NCBI GenBank assembly: GCA_973895155.1
Contig: OZ316892.1
Location: 16,039,040 to 16,103,039, forward strand
DNA length: 64,000 bases
Reading direction: 5' to 3'
Source: Marsupella aquatica
Taxonomy: Eukaryota; Plantae; Marchantiophyta
In this document: piece after piece, positions 12,776 to 43,414 of the stretch
Layout: every line of letters starts with the position of its first letter
Numbering within the stretch: position 1 is the stretch's first letter
Position numbers and translations under genes: made by a program
Notes under the pieces: model-generated
Seen by the model: the letters and a program-made list of their open reading frames with translations, nothing else
Database searches by the model: none
Told to the model about the DNA's origin: nothing

Positions 12776-13283
12776 TCATGGACAGCAGTGAATAGGGATG
12801 CCTAATAGTGGTATTTGTGTTCCATATATCCCTGACTGTATGTGCCAAAAGAGTTAACATAACGTGTAATAAATTCTCACAAACCCTAAACCACCCCAAA
12901 AGAAAAAAACAGGTTTGCGAGTAGTGTACCTATTGTCAAGTGAATGACACAAAATTCCTCAATGTTTGAGGGTGTCACCACCTCCACAACTGTCCTCAAA
13001 TGTACCGCCTCTGCATGTACACCCATGACCATATCAGAGTCCAATCATGTATAGTCATAGGCATAGGTGTGAGAGCGGTATCAGATATCTCACCGCCGAG
13101 ATTTGAGCCCACCCAGTACGTTTACAGTGACACCCCCAGGCAGCAGGAAACAACAATCCGCCAACAGTAAAATAAGCCCAACTGCCACCAACCATAACAA
13201 GGTACATTAGTTCAAAGATCACATTTATTTCAATGATCTGATTTATACAAAAAAACTTGTGTCCAAACTGATGCTACTACTCC

Positions 13284-15429: not shown

Positions 15430-15440
15430 GCCTGCGCATG

Positions 15441-15584
15441 AGATAGACTCTACAGTTTAGCAGACTGCACAGAAAGTAATATATATTTAGCATTTAAGGT
15501 ACAAAGGCATTTAGATAGACTCTACAATTTAGCAGACTGCACAGAAAGTAAAATATATTTAGCATTTAAGGTACAAAGGCATTT
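15441..15584. repeat. Tandem duplication, 2 x 72 bp, just upstream of the PHD ORF start
   Basis: AGATAGACTCTACA(G/A)TTTAGCAGACTGCACAGAAAGTAA...GGTACAAAGGCATTT occurs twice. Confidence 0.9.
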
Positions 15585-19912: not shown

Positions 19913-22684
19913 GCCCAAACTGAAGCTACGTAGCAATCCTCAGCAGTGTGTGACAGAAGCACTCCACTCCAGCTCCACTCCGCTCGAGCTCCACTCCAGC
20001 TGCTCTCCGCTCGTAGCTCCTCGGCCAGACCGGCGGCCAGAGCAGCTCCCAAATTGCAGCTCCTGCCCGCCCACAGCTCCTCCCAGTCCTAGAGCTCGTC
20101 GTCCACTGCAGCTCACCTCTCCACTCCGCAAGCCGGTCGCCCTCTCAGCTTGAATGCTCTAGAGCTTTGAAGGTAAACCTTCAAGCTCCAAGCGCAAAAC
20201 TCCCCTACGCGAAGGAACTGCCCCGATCGCGAAGCACACTCCCCACTTTGTGAGACCACGCACAATGTGACGACCTTCAGGCACGACGAATGTCCCCGTA
20301 ATGGACAAGTGAGTTTTTCTGAAACAAAACCCTCCGAGTTCCCACGCACATTGAACTGAACTTTGCACTTTGCTGGCGTGTTTAAACCCTAAACAAAACC
20401 CGCGCACCCTAAACTCGTGTCCAAAGGCACACTCACGCACAAAGCATACCTTAACACTTAGTGACACTTAGTGAACTAAACCCAATGAGCCTCGACCACT
20501 TTGCGTTGACATGAGCCGTTGATACACATGTTAGTACCCTAAAGCAAATTGGACACGACACTTTGTGAGCAAAGATTAAATGAACGCAACTGTAACCTCT
20601 TAGAACGCAACTGTAAATTAACCCTTACACATGCCACTTAGGGAGGGTGGACAAAGAATGGGGGCCAGACACTACTTTAGCCCTGAATTGAAAATGATAT
20701 CACCCCAATATTCTTGTCAAAGTTGCCCATGAACTCTAAGGAATCCATTGAGCAGCATAAGACTTACTATTATAGAGGCAAGTACTCCCATGCACGTTTA
20801 ATTAGGCTAGCTAGGATAACTAGCTACAATGCTCTTGACATGAAGACATTTAACTAGTTTTGCAACCCTAAACCCCCATTCCTTCTATGTGCACCTAGTG
20901 CTCCCGACTCCGCAAGTTGCAAGTCAAGGGTTGTAAATGGAACATTCCGTGATGTCTAGAGTGCATGTAATCCTTCTTGCACTCTATTTCAGAATGCCGT
21001 AATGGAGAGTAGCTTATTCAACTTACATATGACTGCCCTACTAGTGTTACAATTGCTACTTTATCAGAAGTTGTAGGAATGACTTTCACAAATATCCCCC
21101 AAAAATCAGTTGATAAAATGTAACAACAATGACTCCCCTAAACTTGGAGTCATGTATTTTTGAAAGTCTCCCTAAAGTCACAAAGCATAGGGTCTCAAAA
21201 GGGGACGTTTTCTTCTAGTGGCTCCACCTCAGTAGCACGTTGCTGATCGATGACAATCCCCGAGGGAGATGCTCTTCTGGCGAGCAAGCTCATCAACCCT
21301 TGACTCTATTTCTCTATGGTCTCCAATGTCATCTTGAAATCTCTCCATTGGGGGTCCGGTATTCCGCCCCTCCAATTTGTTCATCTTAAGATGATCCCGT
21401 GTCCTTTGAGAATCCCATCTCGAGAATCCGTCCCTCTCAACACCTGAAGGTTTAAGTCCATACCAACTTTGCGCATTACCTGTACCTTCAGTCGTGCCTT
21501 CTCTTTGCAAATGGGAATGTCCAAAGTTGGATTTAGCTCTGACATCTTGACTTGGTGCACCATGCACTAAAGCAGCTCCCTAGCCAAGTGTATCAGCAAC
21601 ATGTCCCTACAAGCGCAAACCACCTCCGGGTCGATCACTGGAATAAGACCAGTGGTTTGCTCCACCCTCCGCATCCGTCCGTTCATTACCTGAATACGCA
21701 TGCCCCGGGCCCATGCCACGGCCCTCCATGCGGCCGGAGTTCCGATAGCGTGACATTCGTTTGCTCACCCTCCCAAGTTGAAGCCAAGCCTAGTAACCCA
21801 ACCCAAAAGCAAGCAAAATGGCTGTCTCGCTTGGCAGTCCCACAATTTTGCTTTACCCAAGACTTATTCAAGCGCATAAGAGATAAAAAAGGTGAGAGCT
21901 CACCCAATCCAGAGCACTTCCAGGTTGATCGCTCCATGCACCCCAAATTCTCCTCCGTAAGAAGTTGTTTTCTCTCCTTCTAATCACCGCTTACACCACG
22001 GGCTATAATCAAGTTCTTCTCCTAATGCACTTTCTACTCCAGATTTAACTTCCTTATGAAAACCAAGAATCCCGTGCAAAGTTTACCAAGGAAACAAGGG
22101 TCGTTCTTCTTCCTCGTCCCTCTTTCCCTGCGTTCCCAACCCTAACATGTTCCAGGTTTTCTTCCTTCTCCGAGCCACACTGAATTTGCTTTCACTTCTT
22201 ACCACAATAGTAACACTCCCTCAATGAGGAGTAATTATCTTAGCATCCTATAACCTTTAATCTATCCTACCTCCTCCCGCCCTCCAAATCCAAGTACAGC
22301 CAGCACACACTTTCAGCTCCGCCAATTCATTGTATCAGCTTAGCAGTCAAATTGTCACAAAACTTAATTCCTCCATATTTAACCTTCCATTGATAATCCA
22401 AACTAAGAGATTATCTTAACCAGATTGATTTCCTCTATCTTTTGAGCGTTCTCTTTTGTACGAGCACACACCAAGACCAATGGCAAAACCATCGGTTACC
22501 GCCTTGCTGAAAATTGATTTCACTTCATCCCACACACATTCCTTGGATGAACATGGGGGTCCACGGAGTAATTGAAGCTACAAAAAAACATTAAAGGTGA
22601 CTAAGTTCAAAATGACATTCAAAGATAGGAAGCCTACTTTGGATATTCATATATGTTGTGATGCTCTATGAAAACTAGGGATAC

Positions 22685-23292
22685 TAGGCTCATTGGAAAG
22701 CACATTTAAAGGTGCCCCCCTTATGATACCAGGATTGGCAATTGTCACCCAATGGAGGGATCAAAGATCACCGAGTGCAAAAAACCCTATAAGCAACTAA
22801 CTTTGCAAGTTTTATTTGCATTGTTGCATGCAAGGGAAAATTGGTGATGTTGGACTCAATGAAAAGCACATCTCATGGCACTTCCAATGCTACCAAAATA
22901 GACAATTGTATTTCAGTAGTAAAGGAGAAGTCAAAAGTCAAACGTCATAAATTACAAAAAGTCTACAAACATTCAACAAAAGGCAACTGAGTTTGATGCT
23001 CAACAGAAATTGGCAATGTTGAGCTTGTTGGGAAGCACATCTCAAGGCGCTTCAAATAGTACCAGGATTGACAATTATCCAACCTTAATCAGGGAGAGGT
23101 CAAAGGTTGATCCTGCTGATGGTAGAAAATAACATTCAAAAGAAGGTATCCAGGGAAAGCAATGGTTGATCCAAATTGTGGAAAATCTACAAGTTTTCAA
23201 GAAAAGACAAATGATTGTGTGTGCAATGATGCTCAACAAAATTTGAAGATCTTGGGCTCATTGGAAAGCACATCGCAAGACTCTTCTAATGG
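22685..23292. repeat. Degenerate ~170-bp tandem repeat with (CATTG)GAAAGCACAT core
   Basis: Cores near 22691, 22860, 23030 and 23259. The first three are followed by an ACCAGGATTG(G/A)CAATT-like sequence. Confidence 0.6.
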
Positions 23293-24030
23293 GAGTGTTC
23301 ATAAAATGAGAGATAACGGGTATGATAGCCACGACAGAAAACAGAAAACAGAAAACCTGTTACCAGGGGTTTATTTTCTGTTAACAGGGAAATTGTACCT
23401 GTTACCAATAAGCTTGTCCCTGTTACCAGTTTTGCCTGAACCATAACGTGCATATCCACCACTCTAAGGTGCATATCCACCACTCTAATGGCATAATTTT
23501 TCGGGGGGCAATAAAGTTTAAAACAAACAATTATTTTGTGCCATCCGATGGATGAAGTGTACTATCAATCCTCCATTGACACAACAATTTATTGTAGAAG
23601 ATAAAAAACATGGTATTAGGAGTGTGCCTAAAGAAACATTCATGCAAATCAATCTATTTTCATCGGCAAATAGTGACCCTTAGAGTGGGACCCACCATAG
23701 CACATGTCAATCGTGGAGTCCAAATGAACCCAATCTAAAGGAGTTGATTAAATGGACCTTGTAACGTCACAAACAAATGACAAATCACATCCTCGAGGCT
23801 TTGAAGACAGTAGACAATTTAATCAACTTACACATTTTAAATAAAACAAGAGGTCATTCTTCCACAATGCACGTACATAATGAAGCAATGAATATCCGGT
23901 TTCCTAGAACCAGCGCCTGGCGCTAACCAACAAAGTCTCAATAAAACAACTAAAATATCTGTTGGAAAAAGACAAAATAGGGAATAACCGTTATATTGAA
24001 CGACGACCTATTGGGCAGTTTCGATCTCTC

Positions 24031-27000
24031 TCATAAGCCATTCAAGTTCTGCCTCTCCAGCACAAGCCTGACTTCGCCTAAAGTCAAAATAGATTGGCTG
24101 CAAAGAGTCGACTCCTCAATCTCAAGTTTGAAAACATTTATGTACACCCAGTATAGATGTTTGCAAGGCATGTACGACTTGCCACGCGAATGTCGGAGGA
24201 AGAAGTCTTCACAAGAGCAAGCGGGGAAGATACAGATTTGGACGAAGTATGTGCTTGGTGATCGATGGTTCTCATGGGTTCGAATTCGAAATTGCTTTCC
24301 AAAAGCATTTCCGGTCTGAACATTCCATTCCCCATCCAAACTCATCACTTCTTGTCGTGCAGACTCCATTCGCTTCGTGTGACCCACAGTGAGATTAGAC
24401 TGAGGCCTTGAGTTCCTCCCATTTCGACTACCAAGTCGGAGATTCGGCTCCAAAAACCTTATTGTTTCTGGGAACATGTTAACATTTATCCTGAGGTCAA
24501 AAGCAGATGGCGCAGATTGACTCAATCCTGTTGTTCACGCTAATACAAGTCCTTGCTCTTCCAGGAATGTAATTTCAGAAGGAGACAGGCTTGTACCCTT
24601 CAGAACAGGCAAAATGTCAGGAAAAGGAGGAAGCTTCTGAACACCACGACGCGGATGACTCTTGTAACACGCTTGGTTCGGGAAAAACCAAATCATTTCG
24701 GAGATGGGTTCGCCCCTGAAGAGACGATGGCCCTTCATGACAATTCTGACAACACCTTCAGACGAATGGAAGCCAACCTTCTTGATACGATTTCGACACT
24801 CATCGCGATCCAAACTCCCATTCAGTGTACCATTGCATTGCGGACCTGCTCCATACTTCGATGTCCGTCGCAACTGCCACTGCCCCGGAGGGACATCCTT
24901 CTCTAGCACAATCGTGCGTGGAAGTTGATTCTGAAGTGTTGCTGGGGCACTGAGCGGAGGTTTTGAGGATCTTGTTGTTCGGGTTGTTTGAGGAGTATAG
25001 TCCAGTGAATCAGTATCACTCTCTGATGTGACCATACCTGAGAGATTCACCACCTTTGTGACAGGATGATCAGAACTTGAGGGAATAGAAGAAAAGTCAA
25101 TTCTGTTCAGGTTCTTCCTTTTCAAACCACGAGTATTTGGTGTGGTTATTAGAACGGTGTCATGCCGATGGGAATCTTGTGGAGAGACAGTCCCAGTTGC
25201 ATGTCCCTTCCTCTTCATTGACTTTGTCATTATATCTCCATTCAGGGGAGTACTTCTTTCCAAATCGAATTCTGCTGCGTTAGATAGAAGCATATTAGTC
25301 GCTTCTTCAAACAATCTTGGCAAACCTGCTTGATCGGCGGAACGGAACGCCAATTCCCATATAGTTGGCCCCTTCCCCCGGTTCAAGCCTTTACGGTATG
25401 CACTGTATCCGGCAACTTGAGACAGAGCACGGTTTTGGTCAACTTCGCAAGCTTCATAAAGACCGACCTTTTTCTTTGTAGCCGAGGCTTTCATGGACGC
25501 ATGCCTTGATTTTGACCCTGTACAGTTGGGGATCAAGGCACCTTCCTCAGCGCTTTTGCTCTGCCATACGAAAATGTCAACCATAAGTAGTATTATATTA
25601 CCAGCGCCCGGCACTGGCAACATAAATATGTAGAACAGGCCTGAAATACAATTTCAATGTTTAATACTGAATTCTAACTACATATTGGCTTCAATTTCTT
25701 GTACTACTTGTTTTGACGTGTATGGAGAAAATAACCAGCGCCTGGCGCTAATATGAAGTTGATGAACATTACAGTCTAGATAGATGGATGCCTTACCACT
25801 CGAATAAAATTGCCCCATTGGCGCCAGCGAACAACCCACCAAGATATCCAGCTTTGCAGCATCTTCAGCTTTCCGGGGACACAGTTTCCTGATTGCCACC
25901 ACACAACAATCTCTCGGGACACCCGGTATGCTGCCACAAATGATGGAGCATTTCTCAATTTCTCCCAAAGTCTCCGATGCTCCGATTGACATTCTTCCAG
26001 TACTCCTTCCTTGGAATGACGATGAAAAGATTGATAAAAGTGAAATGCATCAGAGCGCTCCCTCTCCGGGTCCGGGTGTCCACCAAAAAAAACATTTCGC
26101 ACTGCATTCCATCCAGCTTGTGCATTGTTGGCCATAAATCCTTGGATGACAACCTCCTGAAGTTCATTTTCTTTGCAAACCTCAATCATCACTCTCCATG
26201 CCTTTTCGAAGGACTCAGTGTCTTCACCTTTCAACTCGCATGTGAAAATTGTACACAGTGCACGGAAATTGTGGTTGTAGACGTGTGCGCTGAAAGTAAA
26301 CCAATCCGTGGTGACACGCTGCATCACATCAAAACTTACCCAGGCTTCTTCGAGTCTTCCACCCGGTTGCATCTGCCTCAAAAGATCCACACCGGAACCG
26401 TGACCTTTCACGGTCATTTTAAAGATGTGAGGCCTATCGTTCTGACATCCCTGACCTGGAAGCAAATACCTCTGGAGAAACAACACATGAATCCTCCTCT
26501 GCATTTGCGAGAGAAAATCTAATTCACCCCGACCTTTTTGGTCTATCCTAACGCTCCGACAAAGAGATGCAAACTTCTGCGGAGTGGAAAGGATCATCAG
26601 AGACTTCCATATTTCAGTTTCTTCGATATCGACCATGTCGTCAACATGTTCGCAGAGAGATTTCACTAAGGACCCTGTAGCAGAATTCAAGATCCCTGCC
26701 GGTTTTGACAGAGGATTGGCTTCATGTTTTTTTTTAATTAGATCCTCAGCTATCTTCTCCGCACTCCTACAGAAGGTTTTTCTACCTGGATGGTTGTGCT
26801 CACCTATATGAATTGCCAGGCGGGATATATGACTGCATGTTTCCGCATCAAGTAATACTTGGGGGTACATGTAAAACAAACGGGCAGGGCAGTACTTCAC
26901 ACAAAAAGGAATCTGTTCGCAGTAATGACAAACAACACCTCCCTCTTCGATGAAAGATCCCACAGCATACTGACCACTGAGCTTTGGAGTACCCTGCCAT

Positions 27001-27781
27001 GCCTTAGCATTTGCCTTCTTCTTCCTTTGGAAATAGTCGCAGGACTTGTTCCTGCATTCAATGAATCCTGTACAAGTAACCTTCCCAAACTGCCAAAGGT
27101 TTTTAGGATGAACAGTTGCAGTTGTTGGAAATATGCGTGTCCAAATGTAACAATCTTTGGCACGATCCATGTCCCTAAGCCTAGAGCCTTTAGAGAGCAT
27201 CTTATCAATGGGCGGCAACTCAACACGACGTTACCATTGTACTTAGTTGGCAGACAGGACACTTGTTCATGCCTGAAATGACCCACTGATATGAACCGTG
27301 ACAACTCACTATGACCAGTTGATTTGAGTAACGTATCCATCGCACTGCGCCGGTACACGACCTCCAACTGCTTAGAGCTTCCTGGAGTCTCAGCTTTCAC
27401 GACAACAGGGAGTGGGCTTTTCTTCTTCGACGGTGGACTTAGAGTACGATCTCCATCCTCACTTGAAGAAATCTCAACCACATCACATGGAACCGGCGGG
27501 AAACTGGACAGTCCTGCATGCTATCTTAAACAAACCGAGTACGAGATCCCTACGTAGAGATGCCAAAACCGTTCACCATCATCGACATTGAACGTTGCAG
27601 CATCCTCGATATCATCAATGGATTCGAGCTCTCGAACAATGGCCTCAATGTCATTCATCTTCAAATCAAATCTCCCGCAGAGATACCTCTCCCGGACCTA
27701 CTTGTACGTATCTTCCATGGGGACGGGGATAGTCACAATATCTTCAGAACCGAATCGAGAAAGAACGATAGACCGAGACAT
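24031..27781 (-). pseudogene. MULE transposase: GCM/WRKY-like Zn domain + MULE DDE + SWIM finger
   Basis: Zn domain CTGFIECRNKSC...CHYC...CPAR...HIGEHNHP. Catalytic core WVSFDVM, GFMANNAQA, DAFHF and GSKSRHA. SWIM finger CSC...MPCKH. One frameshift near 27220, an intron at about 25563-25796, in-frame TGA at 24535-24537 and a TAG in the predicted first exon. Confidence 0.85.
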
Positions 27782-28743
27782 GGTGAACAAAAACAAAAAC
27801 CGAGGGCTATAGCGTTTGAAAGAAGAAAAGTTCATGGTATTGTTCAGCTTATATCTGTCGAACCTGGGAATTTGACGTTAACCGATCCGTTTGTATACGA
27901 CATAAAACATTGACGATGGAGGATCCGTTGGCACCATAAATGATTTTTGTCGTTTTTTCCTCGAGAAGTCCGGATGTCAGACACGAACATATTGCTAAAA
28001 AGATCACCAACCTTACTTAAACAGACCATAAGATATGACAAGGTATTGTCAAATTTTAGTAGCGCCTGGCGCTAACTAAAATACGCCACCAAAAATGTGT
28101 CTGAAATCTCGACATTCCAAACTAGCGCCCGACGCTAGTATAGAATAAATTCCCTTAAAATGAACATTATGACCACATACCAGGTGGTAATTGGGAATAA
28201 ATGGTGCCTTCAAAGGATGGTTTTGATTGATTATGGATGATAAATGAACATTTATACTAGCGCCGGGCGCTAGTATTACATTTGAGAAATATTTCTCCGT
28301 AAATGATGTACTGAAGGATACTTTAATAAAATATGGGGGTGGAAAGGCCGAAATTTATGTCAGCTCCTTCAAAAAAGACCTCTAAATTTCTTCCAGTTTA
28401 TACTAGCGCCGGGCGCTATTATAAGCATACTCTAAATTGTTCACCTTGATGGTCATCATTAATGCTAGCGCCCGGCGCTAGTATTGATATGATGTTAGGA
28501 AATGTCTTTAACGGTAACATTCAACGGTAACTTATGACTTCCGTGTGTGTTACGCATCTTCTACCGTTTGATTTTGGTAATTAAACCTTCCGTATACAGA
28601 CGTTGGAAACCGCCAAACATCAGAGCTAATGGCTTTCCTCTAGGTTATGTCATCCTCCCGCTAGAATATATTACACGTTCAGAGATGATTATAGTTCCAT
28701 AATTTCATTGTACGATAGTTCGTACGCTTCTAGAAGGAAGACG

Positions 28744-31700
28744 ATGGAGGTATTCCCCTCTTCTTCTAGAGGGTATAGTGTGGTTCCTGACCAGGAGCGA
28801 GCTTATTCTGAATCTTCGCAGTCTTCGTTTACTGGTTCAGTCTATACACGTCATGTAACTCGTTCCTCAAAGTTGTTGCCGCTCACTTCTGTCAGCGGTG
28901 TTTTGGGTCCAAATCCTTTGCGAAGAAAGATGGACAACGTAGACATAATTGCGATCCAGGATGTTGCGGATTGCGCGCTTGCTGAGACTGATCTCATTTC
29001 GAAGCATGTCATGTCTTTTGGAAAGGATTCTCGTGGATTTGACAAGGAGCCGCCTCGAATCCCTCTGTGTCGATTGGTTCACATGGAGGTGGTTCGTACT
29101 CTGCAGAAAGACAGCTCTTCCATCGAGAAGCTGAAAGACTCTTTTCGTAGTATGGGTTACAACTCTTCGATAGGGATGCGTTTCTATGTGCAGCCAACGG
29201 ATGAGAACGGAATTGTTCTGACCTGTACCCAGGACATTCGTGATTCATGGGATCCAATATGGCAATTGGAGAACAAGAAGTTTGAGGCTGAATGCGAGGC
29301 TGACCCGGATTTTCTCGTCTTGAAGGATAAGATGTTCTCTGTATTTGATGGAAATCACAGGCTGTACTCCTGGACGCTTGTAACAGAGGAGAACCCGGAC
29401 AATCCAAAATATCATCCTCGTGTGCTCTGTACAATATTTAAAGGAGACAAGGGATCTCTCATTGAAATTGAGGCAGCTATGCACACCATGAATCAGTAAG
29501 TTCTCATGATTTCCAGTTCTTTCTTTAAATCTTGCGAGTGCTGTATTTACTAGCGCTCGGCGCTGCTTATACATGAATTGTTTTTCATGGACTCTTACTC
29601 TCAACGTTTGTTCGTGTAGGCTTGGCCAAGCAGTTGTAGAGCCTTCCTGGATCCTGGATGCAGACAGAATCAAACGAATTCTGGCGCATGACCTTGAGTA
29701 TTACAGTAAACTGATTGACCCGGGTAATTTCAAGAAGTTTGAAAGCATTCGGCTGAAAACTCGGAAGGGGTCATGGTATACGAAGAAGATGCCACAAGAA
29801 GCACTTGTTTACATTCTTTGTGAGAATAAGATAAAGTCGTACTCGCATCAATTCAAACTCGACATGGAGGCAGCGGAGGCTCAAGGGAGTCCATGGTCGG
29901 CGGACGAGATTTCAAAACGGCATGCGGCCATGATGAAAGACGCAACCAAAGATTGGGCAGTGAAGTCTTCAAAAATTACGCCCTTATTAAGTCCTGAATT
30001 TGAAGATTTCCTCAGTACATGTGCAGAAATGTATGCTGTCACAGAGAGAAACAAGAGAGAGAAGAAGCCTGACACCGTTGTATGTACGATGGACCGCGCA
30101 CGATTGTTCACCGCTGTTTCTGCTCTAGACCCAAAGTTACGAAGCACTTTACTTGTGGCACATTGCAATCCTGAGCTGCGGAGACAGTTTTTTCACCCAG
30201 CAAGTGTTAACGATGATCCAGTCAAACAGTGGTGCCACACTTGGATCACTTGGAATAGTGTGGAGGGAATTGCTGCTGGCATGTTACATTCATGTCTACG
30301 TGAAGTTGAGCAAACCATGCCCGCGAATAGATTGGAAGAGTGGAATTGTAGTTCATTTGATGATCTAGTTTAGTTTGTTACAAATGAATTCAAGAGATTT
30401 GGTGATTCCGTGAAGAATAAGTTCTTTCACACTATGTGGCCTTCAAAGTACCCTGACAAAGAAGATTACACCCAGAGAAACCAGAAGCGAGCGAAGAGGT
30501 TTGTGTATAGGTTCTACATGCACATGGAGGTAACCAAACCTGATTACTTCTGGGCATATCCTGCAGCTTTTATGAAGTGGATTTCAATAAGTGAAGATGA
30601 TGCCTTGGCTGATTTGTACTCTATGTACCCCACGGAGGGCATATTTCCTCCGAGACCAATGACAGAATGGGAGAGAACTCACTGCCCCTAGTATCTAGAT
30701 ACAGATAGATGGGATTCTCCTTTTGATCAAAGGGAAAAAGATGCCTTCCATAAGCTTTCAAAGTCTCAGATACCAGCAAAACTTGTGTCCGACATGAAGC
30801 AGGGTCTACTTGACGATGTAGACAAGTCTGCCACAAACTTGCAAACTATCTGTGAAACAACTATTGTGCATGTGGACCGGAGTCGCAAACCTCGTGCGAA
30901 AGCCAAAGCGGAGCTAGCAGCACCGAGCGAGTCTACTAAATCTGGAAAGAAGAGTAAGTATTGCTATCCATGATTTTGCCAGCGCCATGCGCTGGCAAAA
31001 GAATTCCGTTGAGGGTATTCTCTTTCTTGGTTATTAGGCTTCGGTTGCGACTTAAGTGAATTGCATTTGGTTAGCGCCAGGCGCTAGCTTCTTTCAATAC
31101 TTTAAAAGTACTTATTCTAACTACGACCTGGTTATATTTTAGGAGGGAGGAAGTCTAATACGGTGGGAACGAGAGATACTAAAAAGGATGCTACACCTGA
31201 AGTTTCCGAGGCAAACACGGGAGCTCGATCGGACCCCATTACTCCAGTCGACAAAGGGAAGGTTATAGTTCCTATCGACGCCACGAGTACCAGGAAGAAA
31301 TGAAAGAGAGCTGTCGAAGGTGGACAATCTTTAAGGGAGAGTGTTATAGCTTCTGGTTTCCAACGTGAAGTTGGAAACTTCAAAACAACTGTGTCTCGCC
31401 ATTGCATGGTTGAGACAAGCCTTTCTGAATTTTTTGACTCGACGTTCAACAAGGAGGAGAAGCCCGAGTGGGTTAGTGATGTGGAGAAATGGGGAAAAGA
31501 CCTCGTTAAATTGGGATTTAAAGAGAAGGGAGTTGTTCGGGGGGGAAAAGTAAGATCGTTTGGAGTGGATGCCGGCTTCATTTACCTACCGACCGGGTTC
31601 AAACCATCTATCATTGATAAGAAGGTTCCTAAATGGAACATTCCAGATCACTCAATGGCGAGATCTTTTTTCAAATCCATGGATCCATTTTTATCAGATG

Positions 31701-32419
31701 ATGGGTTCCTTGTAATTCTACACAATGGGGAGTACGATCCCATGTCGCAAGTCATTGCTGCCTGTCAGGAGTCAAGGAAATTTTAGTGTATATGCTCGCA
31801 TAATGTTGTGATGTCTGACCCGATGTATGCGGCAAAGACAGACCGAGAGATGTTTACCCTCAGGCTCGACATATTTGGCCGAATTAATGGGAAATGTAAA
31901 ATTTCCAAAGACCCCAAATTTCGGCCGCTGTCCATCAGTGAGGACCCTTCGGTTACCAATTTGATCGGACTCTCTTCGCTCAAATCAGATCCATTCCCGC
32001 AAATGGAGTTTGCTGGAAATGCTCGTCTGTCTGTGGGTTTTATGCAATCTGTTATAGAGCTTGTCACACGGCCTCGTGATATTTTTATGGATTGGACTGC
32101 TGGGGCTGGAGGCTCTTACATTGCTGGCGACTTCTCTGGACGATTTGTACTCGGGATAGAACACCGGAAAGAATTTATTGAAACCGCTTCAAAGGTTTTC
32201 ATGGATTTGTTGTCTCCCAAAGAGATTGCAGTGTTACCTCCACCTGTTCCTACTGCCGACAGAAAAAAGAGAGATAAGCTTCGGTCGGTTCTCAATTTTG
32301 ATTCTGATGATGAATCGAGTGAAGGTGAAGAGGAACAAGGTACAAGAAACTTTGAGGAGGAAAAGGGAGAGCATCGTGCAGCTGCAGATGAAACCGATAG
32401 TGATGACTCTTCCGAGTAA
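28744..32419 (+). pseudogene. Three-exon gene for a ParB/Srx-like domain + beta-class N4C/N6A DNA methyltransferase-fold fusion (~1120 codons, 4 nonsense codons)
   Basis: Exons 28744-29495, 29620-30953 and 31143-32419 join in frame through GT-AG introns (3363 nt). ParB-like motif FSVFDGNHRLYSW. MTase motifs VDAGFIYLPTG, FLSDDGFLVILH and VIELVTRPRDIFMDWTAGAGGSYIAGDFSGRFVLGIEHRKEF. Stops at 30371, 30689, 31301 and 31784. Confidence 0.8.
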
Positions 32420-33429
32420 TGTTCATAAACTCGTAAGCTTCTTTCTCCATTCCCGTCAATTCATAACATTTCTTTTGTTGTTTTGGGGAAAGGTGCCTTA
32501 CAAAATGGACTTTGTTATATCAAGTCAGAGTGGAATGCAAGGAGACGATTCAAACTGCGGAGGAAGATCGCAAGACACAACGTAGAAACACCGGAAAAAC
32601 CGTTTGTTCTTCCCTCCTATGCAGAGAAAGCCGCAAGGAAAGCAGAAAGTGCAAGGACACTTTGCTGGGAAAACAAAGGTCTTCGGTTACGAAGGGGTGT
32701 TGACCGAAAGTTCATTAAACATCCTTATGTTGATGACTTCTCCCGCAGCCAGTACGTAGATGATGAGGTTGTGTCCACGGACAGATCCCAGAGTACAGAT
32801 TCTGGTTCCGAGTCAGAATCTTCGGAACCTTGAGAAGTAGTGGGTAGTTGAGGCTAAATCTTTTAGCAGCGCCCGGTGCTTGTAACAAGTGTATTATTTC
32901 CCTCTGCTGAGGGTCCTTTGAAATTGTTGATTTCTCTCTACTTGTTGATTACTTTTGACTTCTGTTCTTTACAAGCGCCTGGCGCTCGCCAAATGGAATC
33001 TCTAAATGGCCGTTTAGTCAGTCGTCGGATTGTGTTCTTTAGTCAGTCGTCGGAAAACCGTTGGGGACCATAGTTTAGGGACCGGGCGGAAGGGACGACT
33101 ATAGTTTCCATTTAGGTTTGTTCGGGACGACGAGAGTTGGGGACGTCGATAGTTGAGGACGACGATAGTTTTGGGAAGACGATAGAACGGGACGTTAGAG
33201 CAGGGCGAGAGAACGGGTCGATACCGGTTACCAAGGCGAAGATAGTTTTGGGAGGCAATAGAACGGGACGATGATAGTTTGATGGTCGTTTCGGAATGGT
33301 AGTGTACGCGGACCTTTATCTGGCGTCTTAGTCTTCGCGGACCTTTCTTTGACCTTTGTCGGCTATAGCACTCGCGGATGACGTTCTTACGGGAGGAGAG
33401 GTTACATATTAGATCGGGATCTTTGGAAC

Positions 33430-33891
33430 ATGGCGAGTCAGTATGAGCCAATGGATTGGGAGGCAGCTTTTCGTCCTTCTCGTGTGCGTCCAGAAGAGAG
33501 CCATTTCAGCTCTTTTGAATCGCGGATGGAGACTGAAGAAACTGAAACTTCCACTTTTCAGAACCGTCATGCTCTCCCGTATGATGAGGCTATTAGTCCT
33601 GGAGAGAAGAACATCCCTTGGATTGTCGATTCCCCTACGCCTCCGTTCTCTAGTCGGTTTTCGTCTCACTCGGGAGTTCTTGTTGATGGGGTACTCCCAA
33701 TCGATCGAAGAGTACAAGAAATGTTCGGGCGAGTTGATTTTAAGGACAGTAATATTCCTAATGAACATTTTACGAGGGCTGTTCATCGAGGACCTTCAGA
33801 GGGATACGTTCGTTTGCGTGGTCTCGGCTTCAAGAAAGATCGGCGGAGAGAAGCAGCAGGAGTGGATGATGATTGCAACTCAGAAAGCTAG
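33430..33891 (+). CDS. Hypothetical 153-aa MULE accessory ORF
   Basis: ATG-initiated, open, protein-like composition, and lies between palindrome copies. No recognisable domain. Confidence 0.35.
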   Translation: MASQYEPMDWEAAFRPSRVRPEESHFSSFESRMETEETETSTFQNRHALPYDEAISPGEKNIPWIVDSPTPPFSSRFSSHSGVLVDGVLPIDRRVQEMFGRVDFKDSNIPNEHFTRAVHRGPSEGYVRLRGLGFKKDRRREAAGVDDDCNSES

Positions 33892-34668
33892 ATGGAAATT
33901 TCGTTTTGCTGATCGCTTTAAGCTAGCGCCGGGCACTGCTAAAGTTTTCCGGATTTTGTGGCATTGAAGTCGACCTCAGCTCTGGTGTTAGGGTTTTCCC
34001 GGTTGTCTACTATTTAGGTTTTGGCTAGCGCCGGGCGCTATTGAAACGACAACGGATTTTGTGGGAGGGAATGGATCTTGACTATGTTGTCTGGGTTTGG
34101 ACGCATCTTGTCTCCAAGAAACGACTAGTTTTCTAGTTAGTTTTTGGCTAGCGCCGAGCGCTGTTCATGTATTAGTCGAAAACCTCCGACGGTGTCGACC
34201 GTGACTTCATGGATGGGATTTTTAGGCCAGATTGTTGATGTTGATAACTGCATTTTGTATCACTTAAGCCGAGCGCGTTTTCTATTTTGCCATAATATAT
34301 GCGAATGTTTTTTCCGGCCTTTCTTTTCTACTTGTATTTGTCTTGGATTTTGTGTATCTCAATTGGCAGCCGTCTTTTATGTTTCAAAAAATTGTTCCCG
34401 TGTTGTTCTTTTATTTATCACGAGGGTTTGGTGGTTTTGTTTTCTATTCTTGTACTTTCAAATGGAGATTTTGAGACCTTTTTTTAAGATCACTGTTCAC
34501 GACCATCCAAACACTGTTCACTGGTAACAGCTCCTTTTAACTGGTACCAGAATCTGTTTCTTGTTACTATTATCTGTTTGCTGTCGTTTGTAAATTCCCC
34601 CAGCATACCTAAGGAGATTAACAAGCGAACGAGAAAGTACGTCAATAACAAGCTCAAAATCATCAGAT

Positions 34669-35160
34669 TTGGAGGAGTCGCAATTGCCTCAACAAATGAA
34701 TAGTCCACCACGACCATCGGGGTCTGGTTTGGCAGGTCCTGCCCCGAGCCCGGTTGCACCTCCGCCAGTGCCCCCATCGGCTGTAGCTCATGCGGCCCCA
34801 GCTCCTCCGCAAGTATCACAACGATCAAGGTTCCATTACCGACCATTCAAAGGACGTCACGGGGACAATCCGGATGAATGGTTGGATGAATTTGAGGCCA
34901 CCACCAAAGCTAATGGGGAAGATGCCATTAAAATGATAGTTCTTCCAGGAGTAATGCGGGGAGAAGCCCACCCATGGTACAACTTGCTACAACCCGGAAT
35001 CACCTGGCCACAATTCCAGGCAGCATTGTTCCAAGAGTTTTGTGTGGTCGGAGCAGAGTCGCACTCCATGTTAAAAATTGGCCATCTTTGCATGGGGAAG
35101 AAGGAGGTCCTGCAAAAGTTCATTCAGAAGTTCTAGAAGCTCGCGGCCAAGATTTTTGCA
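34669..35160 (+). mobile_element. Ty3/gypsy gag (capsid) fragment
   Basis: PFKGRHGDNPDEWLDEFE...MRGEAHPWYN...TWPQFQAALFQEF...LQKFIQKF* matches retrotransposon gag. Confidence 0.8.
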
Positions 35161-35735
35161 CGGGTTTCCCATGGATATGCAATTTTGGGTTGCCCACGGA
35201 TATGCAATTCTGGGTCATGAATCCGCTCATATACGAACACTCTTCCTGGTGGGTTTCTGCTAGCGCTTGGCGCTACTAATATCTGTTCTTAGAACTTACG
35301 TTAAACTAACGGAAATATTTTGTTGTCAACGGTCATCCGCCACCATTTATCTCATATTTATCCATTGTATCAACGGTAAATTAATTCTATTTTGGAGGTC
35401 CACGTCATGTTTTCTTTGTTCAAGATGACTTACTTGCAGAGAAATAAGAATGTCAAACTTGAAACAATCTTGTCATTTCCTATTCTGTCACGTTGTTTGG
35501 GGTAATTAGGGTAAAATGTGTGGTTTTGGGTGACATGATTAGCGTTCTTGTGACTAATAGAGAAGGTCATCAATGCGTTAGTGAAGATTATCTTTGCAGA
35601 AGGTTTGATGTCAGGAGGAAAGACATTAAAATTTTAGCGACACCTGACGAAGGGTAAGCTCATTTTTATTACATTCTGGGAACTGCACGTAGGTGTCCAG
35701 TACATGCTTTCCCTCAAAGGAAAAGGGGTGGTCAG

Positions 35736-36615
35736 GTGAAGTTAGAGACGGGAGATGCACCAAGGGAATTCATTGACCTGACGTCTAATGGCGAGGACTT
35801 ATTCCCTGGATCTCAATCGTCGATCAATGTTAGGAAGATCACGAGCGAAGAATGTCATTTCCAGTATATCAGTGTAGCAAATCAACAGAGGACGTTCTTC
35901 TTGCGTCAAACAATGGATGTGACAAGCTTCTAAAACCTCCTTCTCTTCCTGTCGTTTACAGAAGAAGCGCATTAGACGCCCTTTTGAAATCACCTGGTCA
36001 AAGTGAGCTATCTTGCTTTGTGCGATCAGAGACTTTCAAGCACAAGCAAGTAGAATTACTTCCAAGAACTTACAACGACAATGTTATATTTGAGCTTCCA
36101 CCTGTCGATTGTGTTGGTTCAAAGGGGAAGCGTCTCCTTAACATGGACCGGTCAAGGGATTGCTATCTGTGGACTTGAATTCTTCCTACTTCAACCAATG
36201 TCTTGCTGAAGAAGATGTGGGAGTTTGGCAAAGTCAGTTGTAGCAGATCACTTGAATGTCGAAACAAAGCTTGCAAGTTTTATATCAAAACCAATGGTAG
36301 GAATTGTACGTCATGGGAAGGGACCCCCAAGTTAGGAGGCCAACATTGTCCAGGAAAGTTGATTGATGCAAGAGGGATTGTTTGTCATTATGGTCTTCAA
36401 CTCCCGTTATGTTTGGACTCCTGTTCCGCAAAAATGTTCTACATGTACCCATAAGTCCTGCTGGATTTGGTGACAATGCAGCATATATCACTCCTTGCCA
36501 TCCATATGGGTGTCCATAACCATCCTTGTCAAAAGGTCTGGTCTAGAAGTTTAGAGATAATAGCTGTCGAAGAGATTTGAAAAGAGCACTTCAAGAATCC
36601 TTCTTCCTCACCCTT
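35736..36615 (+). pseudogene. Second, decayed and truncated copy of the GCM-like MULE transposase N-terminus
   Basis: VVYRRSALDALLKSPGQSELS, NDNVIFELPPVD, MDRSRDCYLWT, WEFGKVSC, ECRNKAC and MFYMYP...LAIHMGVHNHP align with 26780-27360 (-). Several stops. Confidence 0.85.
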
Positions 36616-38430
36616 TGTTTGTTGTAAGAAGGACATCACGCCCTCTATCTTGATTGGGTCTACTTGATACAAAAGTTGCACTCCTGGGAGTCCGAACATT
36701 TTGCACAGCTTCGGGTTGGAGAAAGTATGAGTTTTCCCCTTGTATGTAATGAACAAAGCATCAAGTGACATTGTCACCTTAGTAATTTGTGAGCAAATTT
36801 CACCTGCCCAAGCGGTTGATAGATAGCAATCTATTTGCACCATGCCATCAACTCTAGCCCTATCAAGAATTATTCAACTCTCCTCGATGCGCTGCACCTC
36901 CATGATGGAGTTGCGGATCTTCTTGTTTGAAGATGGAGCTCCCTTCTTGTTCCTAGCCGGGGGGAACCTCCGCTCTCCGTGTTCTTGTTGCCTCCATTTT
37001 GCCTAATGAATTCTAGTAGTGTAAGTGGGGAGTGAGCAAATTGTTGCGTTGCGTTTCGGCGAGTGCTTTAGTTGGAAGCAAGGGACAATAAGTGCGCAAA
37101 TGCCTCGTGGGGAAAAATCCAGCCCACCTCTCTGCCTTATGCTTGAAGGATTTCTCTCTTTGGTCTTTGAGTGTCCGGAAGGGCGGGATGGCCCTTTGTT
37201 GTGCAAGCGCGAGAGCATCTTAGTCAAGCGCCCACTTAATGATATCCTTAGATACGGTGATTACTCTGGGGGCTACTTACGAGTGTCCTCTACTCATTAC
37301 TAAGTAAAGCCACAATACTTGATATGGTTGTTATGCAGTTTTCCTTAAGTTCAGATCAGTGGCGGTACCTTAAGACCCATTATGGTTGTCCCAACTATTT
37401 TTAGAACAATAATCGTGCTTTACTATAAACGACAAAAAGATTGGGATCTGCACAAGTATATGTGAGGGGAGCGATACCCTTGGGGGCGGGCCAGGGGCAA
37501 ACCCAAGTTTGTGTGAAGCGTGACGTTCGCGCTACTAAGAAAAAATGCCAAATAAAAATGATAATAAATTCTCAACGTTGTTTGGGTGATTGTAATTTGT
37601 GAAAAGAGCATGTTGGCTCGTATAAAGTTAATCATGCATTGCACTAAGTACTAAATCAAGATTAAAATAATAATTATATTCAATAGAGTAGTGAGTATCA
37701 TGAACGGTTTTGGCAATACTAATATGTTATTAAAGTTTTTTTCTTCAAATTTGCATATCAATGTCTCTACAATTGAACTTTGTACGATAAGCTATTTGAA
37801 TATCCTCAAGAGAAAACAAAACAAATAGATCATTTGAGGCTCTATTCCAATCCATGATAATTTTAATAAATAATGAAAATAATACATTTCCATTCCTCTC
37901 GGTATGACACAACTATATAGACTAAGGGTTCATTAGATCCTATAACAATGACGATAAACCCAAAACCAAAGTGATATATTAGGTGTTATTGTATAGAAGG
38001 TTTGTCTAGAAGATGAACTCTAATAAAAAATGGATTACAAAAGGGAAGATTAGGAATGACACTTTTTGCTTTTGTTTTCTATTAGATTCATAATAACTCA
38101 CATGTTTTATCTCTTGGGCTGTTTTATCTCGAGAAATGACTCACATGTTTTTTTGCTATTCAAGCCAAATGATGTCTCATCTTATATTTCCAAAGAAACC
38201 TTCATCCTAAAGGTCCCATCTTTAATTCTATGACTTATTTTTTTGTTAACCGAGCCAAAAGATACCCTATTATATGAACATAAGGCTAAAGAATGAAGGA
38301 AAATATGGAGAAAATATGAGCATTTTGATGAGAGAATAATCAAGATGTGAATGAGGAAAGAGTGTCTTTTGCAATTTATTTATAGTGAATCCAATAGCGC
38401 ATGGATCACGCCCAAATACTTGGATCAAAG

Positions 38431-38774
38431 GGGTATAACCACCGTGACAGCAAATAGCAAACAACAAACAGTAAATAGTTACTCGTAACAGCAAACGGGT
38501 GGTAAAACTTTTGGAATTTTTTGGGGAATTTTTTGGGGAATTGTTTTTGGGGAAAAAATATTAAATTTTTTTTGTGAGTCGATATTTTTTGGCTAGCGCC
38601 CGGAGCTAGTAATAGTATCGCCTTACACTAGCAAAAAATTGTCATGTTTTAAATTATTTTGAAAATTGTGACTTTTAATGACACATTTTTAGATTGTCTA
38701 GTTTGCTCGTAACAGGAAATTTTTGCTCGTAACAGTAAATCTGTTTGCTATTTGCTGTCACGGTGAAAACCCTC
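38431..38774. mobile_element. 344-bp non-autonomous MULE (MITE) related to the 23318-34600 element
   Basis: TIR core CACCGTGACAGCAAATAGCAAACA at both ends. Perfect 9-bp TSD GGATCAAAG at 38422-38430 and 38775-38783. One TAGCGCCCGGAGCTA palindrome at 38594. Confidence 0.92.
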
Positions 38775-40326
38775 GGATCAAAGCCAAGAAATACACGTTA
38801 AATATAAAAATGTGTGCTAGTATCATTGCAAGCAAAACAATTAATGCATACAAGTAAAACAACAAATGCATGCACCAAGTGGTTAGTATGCATATACAAA
38901 AAATAACTAACGCATACAATGCGTGGCTTGGAACCTTTTTGCCTTGCAAGTATGCACAAAATAACTAATACATGCACCGCGCCTTGCATGCAAATAAAAT
39001 TACTAATAGCAAAATTGTTTAGTTATCCTTTAACAAAATATTAATCCAATCTCATATTACATAGTAATAATGATTCTATCTTGATAATCAAATTATCACA
39101 ACACTGTTAGAAGAATTCTTGGATGTGTTGGAAAGCTCTTGAATAAGACATGTATCCTCCTGAACTCAGTTGGGTGCTCGGTTGGGTGTGCAGGTGCCTT
39201 TGGTTCTTGAGGTTTGTCGGGGCTAACTTGTGTGCTCGCCAAATCCAACACTCAAACCGCGTTCAGTTTCACACTGAGCTTGCATTGGGGAAGCAATGTA
39301 GAGTAGGCATGGGTGTTGAGATCCAAGTGCAAATGGCCCCTAGACTCTCACATGAGTGGGAGCCTCGGAGATATTTGCTAGAGTCGAGGCCAAACTGGTC
39401 TCGACATTTGAGAAAGCTTCGGAACAAGCAAGCTACTTGGGCCTTGAGCATATCCTGAAGGCATGGTGGTCAACCAGTGATGGATAGAAAGTGGGGAAGC
39501 TCGGCAATACCTAGTAGATGGGCTATTCTAGACAAATGGTGGGTGTCAGCCTTGGCTTCAACTTCTGGCAAGGTCACGCGGGCCCGAAAAGTTCTATTTG
39601 CTAACCTTACTAACAATTGTGGAGCTTGAGACAAGACAATGGTCTTGGAGATCCTAGATCATGATGGATTACTTACCGATGTGTTTGGTTGTTTGTGCAA
39701 ATAGTGAGGACCGTTGAGCGATAGTCGTATTAGGGAGCAAGTGTGACTTCGTATGGGAGTTGCCATTGGGGATGATAGGGCACCGAGTAGTTTCATGTAC
39801 TAGGCGTTTGGGCACCAAAGGTACTTAGACAAGAGTCATGTGATTGGTGATGGCGCTATGTGGCAACATCCATCACTCTCCCCAACTTCAATTCTCAGTT
39901 GCTATAGCTTGTCGCCTTCCGGCTAGAGGGATCTCCTATTGTTCCTCTTCTTCTCGGCTCTTCTTCTCTTCTACTTGGAGGAAGCGTTTAACCGCCGTCC
40001 ATGCAAGGTCCTAGTTGATCCTAGCGTCATGTTGTCTTTGCTGATTAAAATTCCATATGTTCTTGAGTTTGTCCTCCAGGATGGGTGAATCCATGAGGCT
40101 CACACAATAATTAGTATGCGTGATACCAATTTTGGGTGATACTACTTACATGCATAGAATACTTAATGTAAAGAGTGTATATGTAGCTCTTTATATACAT
40201 TGCACGGTTCAGTTTCACTAGGAATTGACTTGGACTCCAGTTTTTATGGTCTGTACACTGTTCACCTGGAAAATGAGCAGTAGCCAGGATGGAATGGGGC
40301 CATTTTATATGGGCAGGTGAGACTTA

Positions 40327-40557: not shown

Positions 40558-40982
40558 TAGCCTGACTGCCCAACCGTAGATAGGGCACACATTTGCCTTC
40601 CCATGTGTTGATTCATAGTGAAAATTATTGTGGGGAGTAACTCTATGTAGGCTTCATTTTAAATCTTAATGCCCTTCAAGATTTTTCTTGTTCTAGTTTT
40701 TAGTGCATTCTTGGAGAAGAATAGAGATATCCGTAAAGTCCAGAAAAAGGTAGTCGAGTTAAAGTTAACCGCGATATTCTTGGGTCAGTTAACTTAACCC
40801 TCATCGGTGGTTAACGATGCCCGATGAAGAGAACACGATACAGGGTGAGAAGTTTCCCAGGCCCATTTTCAATGGAAACAAACTTTTTGCCCCCTATGTG
40901 ACATTTGAATCGATGTCCAAGGAGTTCGGGGAAGAGCCCACGTCGAGGGCAGGGATTTCGTCGAGGGCAGGGAATTAAAGCT

Positions 40983-42940: not shown

Positions 42941-43414
42941 ACTATCAAAGTACTTGCAGGGGATCCTTGTAGACGGAGAGTTTTGTTTAGTTAGCCGCGG
43001 GTTAGCAGCTACAAGTGATCTAAAAGTAGTTTACAATGCCAACATTTTTGTAATTGTTGCATTCAAACTTAATCTACAATAATCTGTTGATAGAGAGCAT
43101 GTCGAGAATGGTACAATCCAAATGTGCATTGATAGTAGTGATTCCACAATTTGTCTTGCTCACAACTAAGATTGGACTCAAGCACAAACTGAAGCAAATT
43201 GGACTGAAGTAGATGTGGATGCACGTACATGACTCTGAAGTAATAACAAAGCATTTGACTTGCTTTTGTTGCAATAAGTAGTACTCAAGAACTGAGTTCA
43301 TACATAATAGCTACTGTCCATATACCCTTCCTACTCGAACTATCCAAAATTTATCAAAATTTGGCTGTAGTTGCAACTATGTGTATACATGTGAACAAGA
43401 ATCTATGTTGTCTT

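What the first reader, a model, noticed from the sequence alone, without database searches (positions are those of the whole stretch)
23911..34163. TAGCGCCNGGCGCTA palindrome is excluded from exons but present in introns and intergenic gaps
Seen: 16 copies. Two are in the transposase intron (25602, 25736), one in intron 1 (29551) and two in intron 2 (30980, 31072) of the ParB-MTase gene, five in the divergent promoter, and the rest in flanking non-coding DNA. I found none in the exons of either gene. Some arms extend further (ATACTAGCGCCGGGCGCTAGTAT at 28254; TTTTGCCAGCGCCATGCGCTGGCAAAA at 30974), while spacers between copies are unrelated. Inference: dispersed CG-rich sites retained in a deamination-prone element suggest selection as binding sites for a dimeric protein.
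Basis: seen in the sequence. Interest (0 to 1): 0.8.

Follow-up and report, generated by a model that had tools for sequence, protein, structure and literature searches.

The report
Plant transposon with ParB-like landing sites
An 11-kb jumping gene, likely from a liverwort-type plant, carries 16 copies of one mirror-image DNA word only in its introns and spacers, and encodes a protein predicted to fold like bacterial ParB that likely grips these words to mark the element as its own, a design already proposed for algal transposons.

Summary
Observation confirmed. The window holds 18 copies at up to 3 mismatches (0.67 expected). Sixteen lie in one 11.25-kb multi-copy Mutator-like transposon, and none of them is in an exon. 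The site is longer than reported: RCYAGCGCC-N-GGCGCTRGY. The element's second gene encodes a predicted ParB/Srx fold fused to an N4/N6-methyltransferase-like domain that lacks the catalytic motif. Related elements keep the same introns but carry different palindromes in them, and a 326-bp miniature element keeps one copy at its centre. The ends carry a different repeat, the likelier transposase site. Best reading (0.6): landing sites for the ParB-fold accessory protein, probably for self-marking or anti-silencing. The element is less CpG-depleted than neighbouring DNA transposons (0.64 vs 0.22). Against: near-identical copies conserve the motif no better than its flanks (2 of 11 variable places). 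A motif-like word is very abundant in another organism. No binding, methylation or expression data exist here, and this copy is dead. The gene design is published for Ectocarpus and red algae. This scan's word search listed 46 ParB/palindrome/transposon notes in at least 13 genomes. Verdict: a land-plant variant of a known, untested kind.

The parts
23333..34585 (.). Mutator-like DNA transposon, about 11.25 kb, decayed copy of a multi-copy family; ends placed at the GACAG...CTGTC words, exact termini uncertain by a few bases
   Evidence: (contig depth about 560-630 inside vs about 30 outside in X2); no target-site duplication found
23333..23429 (+). left end: GACAG(AAAACAG) repeats and four CTGTTACCAG-type subterminal words; likely transposase sites (inferred)
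34521..34585 (-). right end: two CTG(G/T)TA(A/C)CAG words and terminal GACAGCAAACAG on the minus strand
25797..27792 (-). transposase exon 1 (Cys/His-rich N-terminal part, D..D..CxxH-like core); frameshift near 27221 and stops in this copy
25561..25796 (-). transposase intron, with motif copies 25602 and 25736
24031..25560 (-). transposase exon 2 (third catalytic region, SWIM-like CxC..CKH at the end); one stop at 24535
27793..28743 (.). divergent intergenic gap with five motif copies: 28060, 28123, 28258, 28404, 28466
28744..29495 (+). accessory gene exon 1: ParB/Srx-fold domain with DGNHR motif
29496..29619 (+). accessory gene intron 1, with motif copy 29551; position shared by L001-L004
29620..30953 (+). 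accessory gene exon 2: region of unknown fold, candidate DNA-reading part (untested); two stops in this copy
30954..31142 (+). accessory gene intron 2, with motif copies 30980 and 31072
31143..32419 (+). accessory gene exon 3: N4/N6-methyltransferase-like domain, motif I kept, motif IV reads YLPT; two stops in this copy
23911..23925 (.). motif copy 106 bp after the transposase stop
32429..32833 (+). ORF A (134 aa stop to stop, no Pfam match; separate gene or further exon), followed by motif copies 32867 and 32973
33430..33891 (+). ORF B (no Pfam match), followed by motif copies 33924, 34026, 34149
35261..35275 (.). motif copy outside the element, upstream of a second, decayed transposase relative at about 35650-36650 (+), 68% DNA identity over 202 nt
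38440..38765 (.). 326-bp miniature element with 24-nt perfect inverted ends related to the large element's ends (26 of 34 bases), one motif copy (38594-38608) at its centre

Best explanation
The palindrome RCYAGCGCC-N-GGCGCTRGY is likely the recognition site of the transposon's own accessory protein, whose N-terminal domain is predicted to have the ParB fold; a dimer would load at the 16 sites in introns and spacers and likely keep the element open and less methylated, so that it and its gene-less miniature copies can keep moving. Shown by sequence and calls: the site, its placement, the two head-to-head genes, the different repeat at the ends, different palindromes in the same intron of relatives, and weak CpG depletion. 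Predicted: the ParB/Srx fold and the Mutator-type transposase fold. Inferred and untested: binding, which domain reads the DNA (probably the unmodelled exon-2 region), clamp-like spreading, and the effect on methylation. The methyltransferase-like domain probably does not methylate DNA in this subfamily, because motif IV reads YLPT.
For: 18 sites vs 0.67 expected, all in or next to this family. Symmetry includes the C-N-G centre and a purine at -2 in 36 of 36 half-sites, as expected of a double-stranded dimer site. No lone YAGCGCC half-site occurs in the element outside full sites. ParB/Srx fold: model pLDDT 84; Foldseek ranks ParB-CDP, ParB, Srx, Noc and KorB first, though E 0.1-0.3; the first 12 of 19 VIA rows are ParB/Srx-type proteins by my recall of those families, best KorB Z 6.8, rmsd 3.0, 94 aligned. 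Site turnover in relatives: L002 (38% identity) has two copies of ATCTCGGC-N7-GCCGAGAT-like words in the same intron 1 (12-nt repeat, 0 of 200 shuffles); L003 has one related copy (11-nt word shared with L002, 1 of 300 shuffles); L001 has an 11-of-14 match to a no-spacer form upstream. Transposase homolog P0033 reads LLLAPALAI twice in the read-through of the same intron, which implies a 14-bp form of the word (peptide only). Contigs of diverged copies keep the motif beside unrelated intron letters (joints 23933-25804 and 28480-29618; loose ends at motif edges). The motif is absent from the last 420-580 bp of both ends, where a different CTGTTACCAG-type word is repeated; the Arabidopsis Mutator transposase AtMu1c binds its TIRs (10.64898/2026.08.24.746577, passages). 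The miniature element keeps one copy at its centre (38601 vs 38602.5). CpG across codon borders: 80 of 124.8 expected (0.64) in six exon segments vs 36 of 162.5 (0.22) in 11 ORFs of neighbouring DNA transposons, p 5e-8. Precedents: PMC12477816 and 10.1101/2025.02.11.637652.
Against: No binding, methylome or expression data. Among near-identical copies 2 of 11 variable places fall in the five cores (1.8 expected), both C>T at the CCG cytosine, and at 28409 most X3 depth carries T. One of four related loci (L004) has no palindrome in its intron 1, and L001's intron is cut after 60 bases. In organism C motif-only contigs reach summed depth about 30,000 against 0-10 in the bins beside, so a similar word may be common there outside this family. 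Fold scores are middling and no sequence method reaches ParB. No HTH was shown. Three unidentified ORFs at 59-63 kb, left out of the neighbour pool, are about as little CpG-depleted (0.46-0.81), so weak depletion is not unique to this element. The gradient of CpG towards the motifs is weak (0.86 within 500 bp vs 0.70 beyond, p 0.049) and confounded with coding. The joints have sides of only 22 bases.
Confidence: 0.6

Rival explanations
1. The transposase itself, through its Cys/His-rich N-terminal domain, binds the palindrome as an internal enhancer of transposition or of its own transcription.
For: The miniature element needs only the transposase in trans and keeps one copy. The second transposase relative at 35.6 kb has a copy upstream and no ParB gene was found beside it. 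AtMu1c transposase activates its own copies and also binds outside its family (passages).
Against: The ends carry a separate repeated word and no palindrome. The sites cluster around and inside the accessory gene: 10 of 16 between 28060 and 32987. The word differs between accessory-gene subfamilies in that gene's own intron.
Confidence: 0.17
2. A host transcription or chromatin factor binds the word, and the element accumulated host sites to be expressed or protected.
For: Five copies lie in the divergent promoter gap. A motif-like 31-mer is very abundant in organism C without this family's flanks.
Against: No copy occurs in about 49 kb of the window outside 23.9-38.6 kb, which includes a host gene. 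Relatives use different words in the same intron, which a fixed host factor would not favour.
Confidence: 0.1
3. The word is the target of an active element-encoded methyltransferase that writes 4mC or 6mA as a self mark.
For: The domain scores weakly as N6_N4_Mtase (E 0.0023, 18.4 bits vs cutoff 26.7) and keeps a GxG-type motif I; the best phage tblastn rows are annotated DNA methylases (E 0.02-0.3). A liverwort has active 4mC enzymes (10.1101/2021.02.12.428880, passages).
Against: Motif IV reads YLPT in 2 of 2 sequences, not TSPPY or DPPY. A 19-bp site is far longer than usual methyltransferase targets (recalled).
Confidence: 0.08
4. The copies are RNA or single-strand DNA hairpins (splicing, termination) or neutral remains of local duplication.
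For: All three introns and the DNA after three stop codons hold copies; one pair has related flanks.
Against: The C-N-G centre is kept (C in 32 of 36 half-sites) although it cannot pair across a one-base loop; the -2 purine is invariant even where arms do not pair; copies lie in the intergenic gap and in a gene-less element; no Rfam match in 22000-40000; distal flanks are near random.
Confidence: 0.05

Closest known systems
Sola1-1_Ec32 accessory gene of Ectocarpus (PMC12477816; passages and reference lines read; figures and supplements not seen)
   Same: A ParB-like domain fused to an N4/N6 DNA methyltransferase domain, on the strand opposite the transposase, about 1100 aa (here about 1120 aa); proposed to bind and modify its own element.
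   Different: Sola transposase in a brown alga vs Mutator-type transposase here. No binding motif is named in the passages read. Here the catalytic motif is missing and a dispersed palindrome is defined. Direct homology between the two proteins was not tested.
Plavaka accessory genes PAG2/PAG3 of red algae (bioRxiv 10.1101/2025.02.11.637652; section 8 and passages read; supplements not seen)
   Same: ParB-like accessory protein next to inverted repeats, proposed to bind its own element; a PF01555 methylase gene in the same cassette; cassette also found on Mutator and Zisupton elements.
   Different: There ParB is fused to a 2OG oxygenase, the methylase is a separate gene with SET, and the inverted repeats form tandem arrays beside PAG3. 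Here ParB and methylase-like domains are one gene and the sites are single, dispersed and intronic.
VANC/VANDAL anti-silencing system of Arabidopsis (PMC5735166 and PMC10398659; passages read)
   Same: Mutator-like element with degenerate ends; accessory protein; short motif in introns, intergenic and terminal non-coding DNA, not exons; motif differs between families.
   Different: VANC motifs are 8-9 nt, non-palindromic and spread by tandem repeats; here a 15-19-bp palindrome with unrelated spacers. The accessory protein is of another fold. Demethylation is shown for VANC, not here.
Bacterial ParB/parS, Noc/NBS and KorB/O_B (structures 6sdk, 7ng0, 8qa8; mechanism recalled)
   Same: ParB/Srx fold with a G-x-H-R type motif; multiple palindromic sites of similar length spread over the element.
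   Different: No ParA partner seen; HTH and CTP use not shown; eukaryotic, spliced gene; extra methyltransferase-like domain.

Membership tests
Mutator-like elements (MULE) | DDE transposase of the Mutator/IS256 type | tested here: met
   Foldseek best four rows are ISCth4 transposase, E 1.8e-4 to 5.4e-4, TM low (ISCth4 as IS256/Mutator relative is recalled). D, D, CxxH-like and ESKH-like motifs in homologs. No Pfam match. This copy has substitutions in two of the motifs.
Mutator-like elements (MULE) | terminal inverted repeats (may be degenerate) | tested here: met
   GACAG(A/C)AAA(C/T)AG at both ends, 19 of 34 bases alike; 24-nt perfect repeat in the miniature element.
Mutator-like elements (MULE) | 8-11 bp target-site duplication | tested here: inconclusive
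   None found around the candidate ends of the large element; exact termini unknown and only one insertion available. TSD lengths from PMC6446971 Table 1 passage.
Mutator-like elements (MULE) | WRKY-GCM1 N-terminal and SWIM C-terminal zinc fingers | tested here: inconclusive
   Cys/His patterns are visible, but Pfam, PDB sequence search and fold searches list no GCM or SWIM match; the N-terminal part was barely tested by the fold search.
ParB + N4/N6-methyltransferase transposon accessory proteins (Sola1-1_Ec32 type) | ParB-like domain | tested here: met
   Predicted fold matches ParB/Srx proteins, middling scores; invariant DGNH in 14 of 14 rows.
ParB + N4/N6-methyltransferase transposon accessory proteins (Sola1-1_Ec32 type) | N4/N6 methyltransferase domain in the same protein | tested here: met
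   PF01555 E 0.0023, below cutoff; phage methylase rows; Atlas look-alikes are N6 methylases at 0.85-0.86, lead only. Fusion rests on the intron-2 model.
ParB + N4/N6-methyltransferase transposon accessory proteins (Sola1-1_Ec32 type) | transcribed opposite to the transposase within the element | tested here: met
   Head-to-head genes 951 bp apart; orientation shown, transcription not.
active N4/N6 DNA methyltransferases | catalytic motif IV (D/N/S)PP(Y/F/W) | tested here: not met
   YLPT at that place in the window and in P0176; TSPPY for MpDN4MT1.
VANC/VANDAL anti-silencing system | motif concentrated in non-coding DNA of the element | tested here: met
   16 of 16 non-coding.
VANC/VANDAL anti-silencing system | motifs multiplied as tandem repeats | tested here: not met
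   Spacings 62-2324 bp, distal flanks near random, one related pair.
VANC/VANDAL anti-silencing system | sequence-specific loss of methylation caused by the accessory protein | not testable with these tools
   No methylome; only indirect CpG counts.
ParB/parS site-and-clamp systems | HTH domain that reads the palindrome | not tested
   Exon 2 had too few homologs to fold; no Pfam match.
ParB/parS site-and-clamp systems | CTP-dependent loading and sliding | not testable with these tools
   Needs biochemistry.

The most novel reading that the evidence does not exclude
A land-plant transposon uses a bacterial-type, nucleotide-gated ParB clamp, loaded at parS-like palindromes hidden in its introns, to spread along the whole element and shield it from CG methylation; each family evolves its own palindrome, giving a second, independent plant anti-silencing system beside VANC, with a dead methyltransferase domain as a methylation reader.
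Probability: 0.25. Interest if true: 0.8.

Novelty: new variant of a known kind. Interest (0 to 1): 0.5.

Why it matters
[quoted passage not shown] This element gives a precise candidate site, three family-specific versions of it in homologous introns, and a miniature element with one site. That makes the idea testable by protein-site swaps in a plant group with laboratory models. If true, it is a sequence-specific anti-silencing or self-recognition tool of bacterial origin in land plants.

Tried and rejected
No whole genome is held, so the genome-wide motif scan could not be run. Homolog search for longer transposases: 0 of 3184 candidates; the HMMER search found 339 at E<=0.001. Related loci: metagenome scan 4 of 14 pattern matches confirmed, all under 2 kb; viral scans 0 of 28 and 0 of 10; genome scans 0 of 3 and 0 of 53, so the DNA behind P0033 was not obtained. 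A 19-bp motif scan of viral contigs gave one locus, a phage contig with a single palindromic match, taken as chance. No RNA holder listed. PDB sequence searches with the ParB and transposase alignments gave nothing relevant. ParB exon vs phages: no match. GCM fold not listed by Foldseek or VIA-align. The alternative acceptor at 25641 for the transposase intron was rejected because it gives an in-frame stop. Rfam: 0 matches. A paper search for the two half-site words listed only unrelated papers among the first 20 of 198. Searches for a description of this element in liverworts or mosses listed none; subscription papers and Repbase are not covered. Sequence look-ups in earlier scan notes found no look-alike. 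The methyltransferase domain and exon 2 were not folded.


Full report
Observation. The window has 6 exact matches to TAGCGCCNGGCGCTA, 11 at one mismatch, 15 at two and 18 at three; 100 shuffles give 0.67 on average and never more than 3. All 18 lie between 23911 and 38608. With the gene models below, 0 of the 16 sites inside the element touch the 61% of it that is coding (P about 3e-7). Part of this is trivial, since the TAG...CTA form makes a stop in two of three frames. The informative facts are the count and the recurrence in unrelated flanks (distal identity 0.34 vs 0.30 for random non-coding pairs). The site is longer than reported: T-rich, then R-C-Y-AGCGCC-N-GGCGCT-R-G-Y, with the outer purine in 36 of 36 half-sites.

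The element. Contigs of public DNA runs show a high-depth block from about 23340 to 34560 (about 560-630 vs about 30 beside it in X2; depth is only a rough guide, about 20 near-identical copies). Its ends read GACAG(A/C)AAA(C/T)AG inward at 23333 and 34585 and carry repeated CTGTTACCAG-type words; no target-site duplication was found. The minus-strand gene is a transposase: 339 homologs at E<=0.001, best structural matches ISCth4, Mutator-type motifs in the homologs. Of 20 transposase homologs looked up, five carry an organism name, all liverworts (Calypogeia fissa, Riccia sorocarpa; 31-39% identity); one of 13 ParB-exon homologs is from Riccia (46%). The host is therefore likely a non-flowering land plant; this is inferred and not pinned down. 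The GCM label could not be confirmed. This copy is dead: a frameshift and stops in the transposase, four stops in the second gene; at one of these stops other copies read C.

The second gene. It lies head-to-head with the transposase and has three exons. Exon 1 folds (pLDDT 84) like ParB, KorB, Noc and sulfiredoxin; scores are middling but the hit lists are uniform. By language-model features its nearest clusters are fungal DUF3723 proteins (0.95-0.96) and one with a small ParB_N share. Exon 3 resembles N4/N6 DNA methyltransferases weakly, keeps motif I, but has YLPT in place of the catalytic motif in both sequences available. Exon 2 has no known match.

Is the word conserved? At short range, no: in 461 bases of the promoter gap, 2 of 11 variable places fall in the five cores (1.8 expected), both C>T at the CCG cytosine; none falls on the CpG bases. 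At long range, yes: contigs of diverged copies match at the motif and run unlike beside it (joints, loose ends; sides are short and only the best-supported rows are shown). In organism C only the motif and its near flanks are covered, at very high summed depth, which shows the word outlasting its flanks but also leaves open that it is common there outside this family. Among four related loci, all with intron 1 at the same place, L002 has two copies of another palindrome (ATCTCGGC-N7-GCCGAGAT type) in that intron, L003 one related copy, L001 a partial no-spacer form upstream with its intron cut off, and L004 none. A transposase homolog at 55% identity shows LLLAPALAI twice in the read-through of the same intron, where this family's word reads LAPGA; that implies a one-base-shorter version, known from the peptide only. 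A 326-bp miniature element with related ends has one copy at its centre.

Methylation history. CpG across codon borders is 0.64 of expectation in the element and 0.22 in 11 ORFs of neighbouring DNA transposons (p 5e-8). The labels pogo-like and CACTA-like for those neighbours are recalled; only the Harbinger-type domain is from Pfam. Left out of that pool were ORFs A and B, the second transposase relative (all 0.64-1.26) and three unidentified ORFs at 59-63 kb (0.46-0.81), which are not more depleted than the element. Non-coding DNA of the element without the motifs has CpG o/e 1.0. This fits a family that has spent less time methylated, but does not prove it. The window's copy itself is decaying: of 26 differences I tabulated are C>T in this copy, 7 are C>T in the others and 7 are transversions.

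Mechanism. A long, two-fold symmetric site that recurs in non-coding DNA, changes between families and is distinct from the terminal repeat is best explained as the site of an element-encoded dimer other than the transposase. The only candidate with a matching fold is the ParB-like protein. I put this at 0.6, with the transposase (0.17), a host factor (0.10), an active methylase target (0.08) and hairpin or neutral origins (0.05) as rivals. Loading, spreading and protection from methylation are inferred from ParB and VANC precedent and are untested.

Comparison with what is known. A ParB plus N4/N6-methyltransferase gene opposite the transposase is described for Ectocarpus Sola1-1_Ec32 (PMC12477816, passages), which cites similar proteins in green and red algae; its reference 50 (Iyer et al. 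2011) I did not read. Red-algal Plavaka elements have a ParB-like PAG3 beside tandem inverted repeats (10.1101/2025.02.11.637652, section 8); its supplements were not seen and may list repeat units or further hosts. VANC binds family-specific motifs in introns and spacers of VANDAL elements (PMC5735166, PMC10398659, passages). Also read as passages: PMC4738411, 10.1101/2021.02.12.428880, 10.64898/2026.08.24.746577, PMC6446971. DUF3723 papers were seen as a search listing only, mostly on Starship elements. Four paper searches listed no description of such an element in land plants. Earlier notes of this scan match the words ParB, palindrome and transposon in 46 findings from at least 13 genomes; I saw 11 of them as short texts, with hAT, Sola, Plavaka-like and other transposases. 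They are unchecked; they raised my odds for ParB over the transposase somewhat but are not counted as evidence.

Verdict. A real, strongly non-random feature. It works like a VANC-type or parS-type self-recognition site; it is not a VANDAL, and its gene belongs by architecture to the ParB-methyltransferase accessory class of algal transposons. New here: a Mutator-type host element in a likely land plant, a defined dispersed site, site turnover in homologous introns, and retention in a miniature element. Interest 0.5.

Noticed in passing
window 38440-38765: 326-bp miniature inverted-repeat element of the same end type, multi-copy by contig depth, with one motif exactly at its centre.
   Followed up: yes
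window 35240-36900: Second, more decayed transposase of the same family on the + strand (43% to P0157), with a motif copy upstream at 35261.
   Followed up: partly
window 28924-29493: The ParB-like domain's nearest language-model look-alikes are fungal DUF3723 proteins, a family named mostly in Starship papers; DUF3723 may be a ParB-fold relative.
   Followed up: partly
window 28456-28487, run X5: In organism C a 31-34-base word around the motif has summed contig depth about 30,000 with almost no cover beside it, and one contig joins two motif-like words 11 letters apart; possibly a satellite or a large miniature-element family.
   Followed up: no
L002 876-1002 and L003 740-766: A different palindrome family (TCGG-N9-CCGA core, shared GGGTCGCCGAG) in intron 1 of related ParB-like genes.
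   Followed up: yes
window 32417-32491: GT and AG signals after the methyltransferase-like exon suggest a further intron that might join ORF A (32429-32833); frame not resolved, no motif in it.
   Followed up: no
window 33090-33290: Cluster of short direct repeats (GGGACGA-type, four copies of 25 nt) upstream of ORF B inside the element.
   Followed up: no
window 34594-35240: Gag-like retroelement fragment (label recalled from the ORF text) directly right of the element, high copy by depth.
   Followed up: no
window 5100-15600: Strongly CpG-depleted CACTA-like element (label recalled) with BRCT-like (13284-14201) and PHD-like (14749-15456) ORFs and a 72-bp duplication at 15441.
   Followed up: no
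window 40722-45135: Harbinger-type element: DDE_Tnp_4 ORFs, a Myb-like ORF at 41959-42798 (recalled) and a 20-nt perfect inverted repeat at both ends.
   Followed up: no
window 34-1422: 462-aa pogo/DDE-1-like ORF on the minus strand (label recalled).
   Followed up: no
window 45200-51450: Exons of a host gene resembling Vps18 (recalled from the ORF text).
   Followed up: no
window 56466-56833: Degenerate 17/35-bp tandem repeat array.
   Followed up: no
window 22659-23290: Four degenerate copies of a 64-100-nt unit at about 166-233-bp spacing just left of the element.
   Followed up: no
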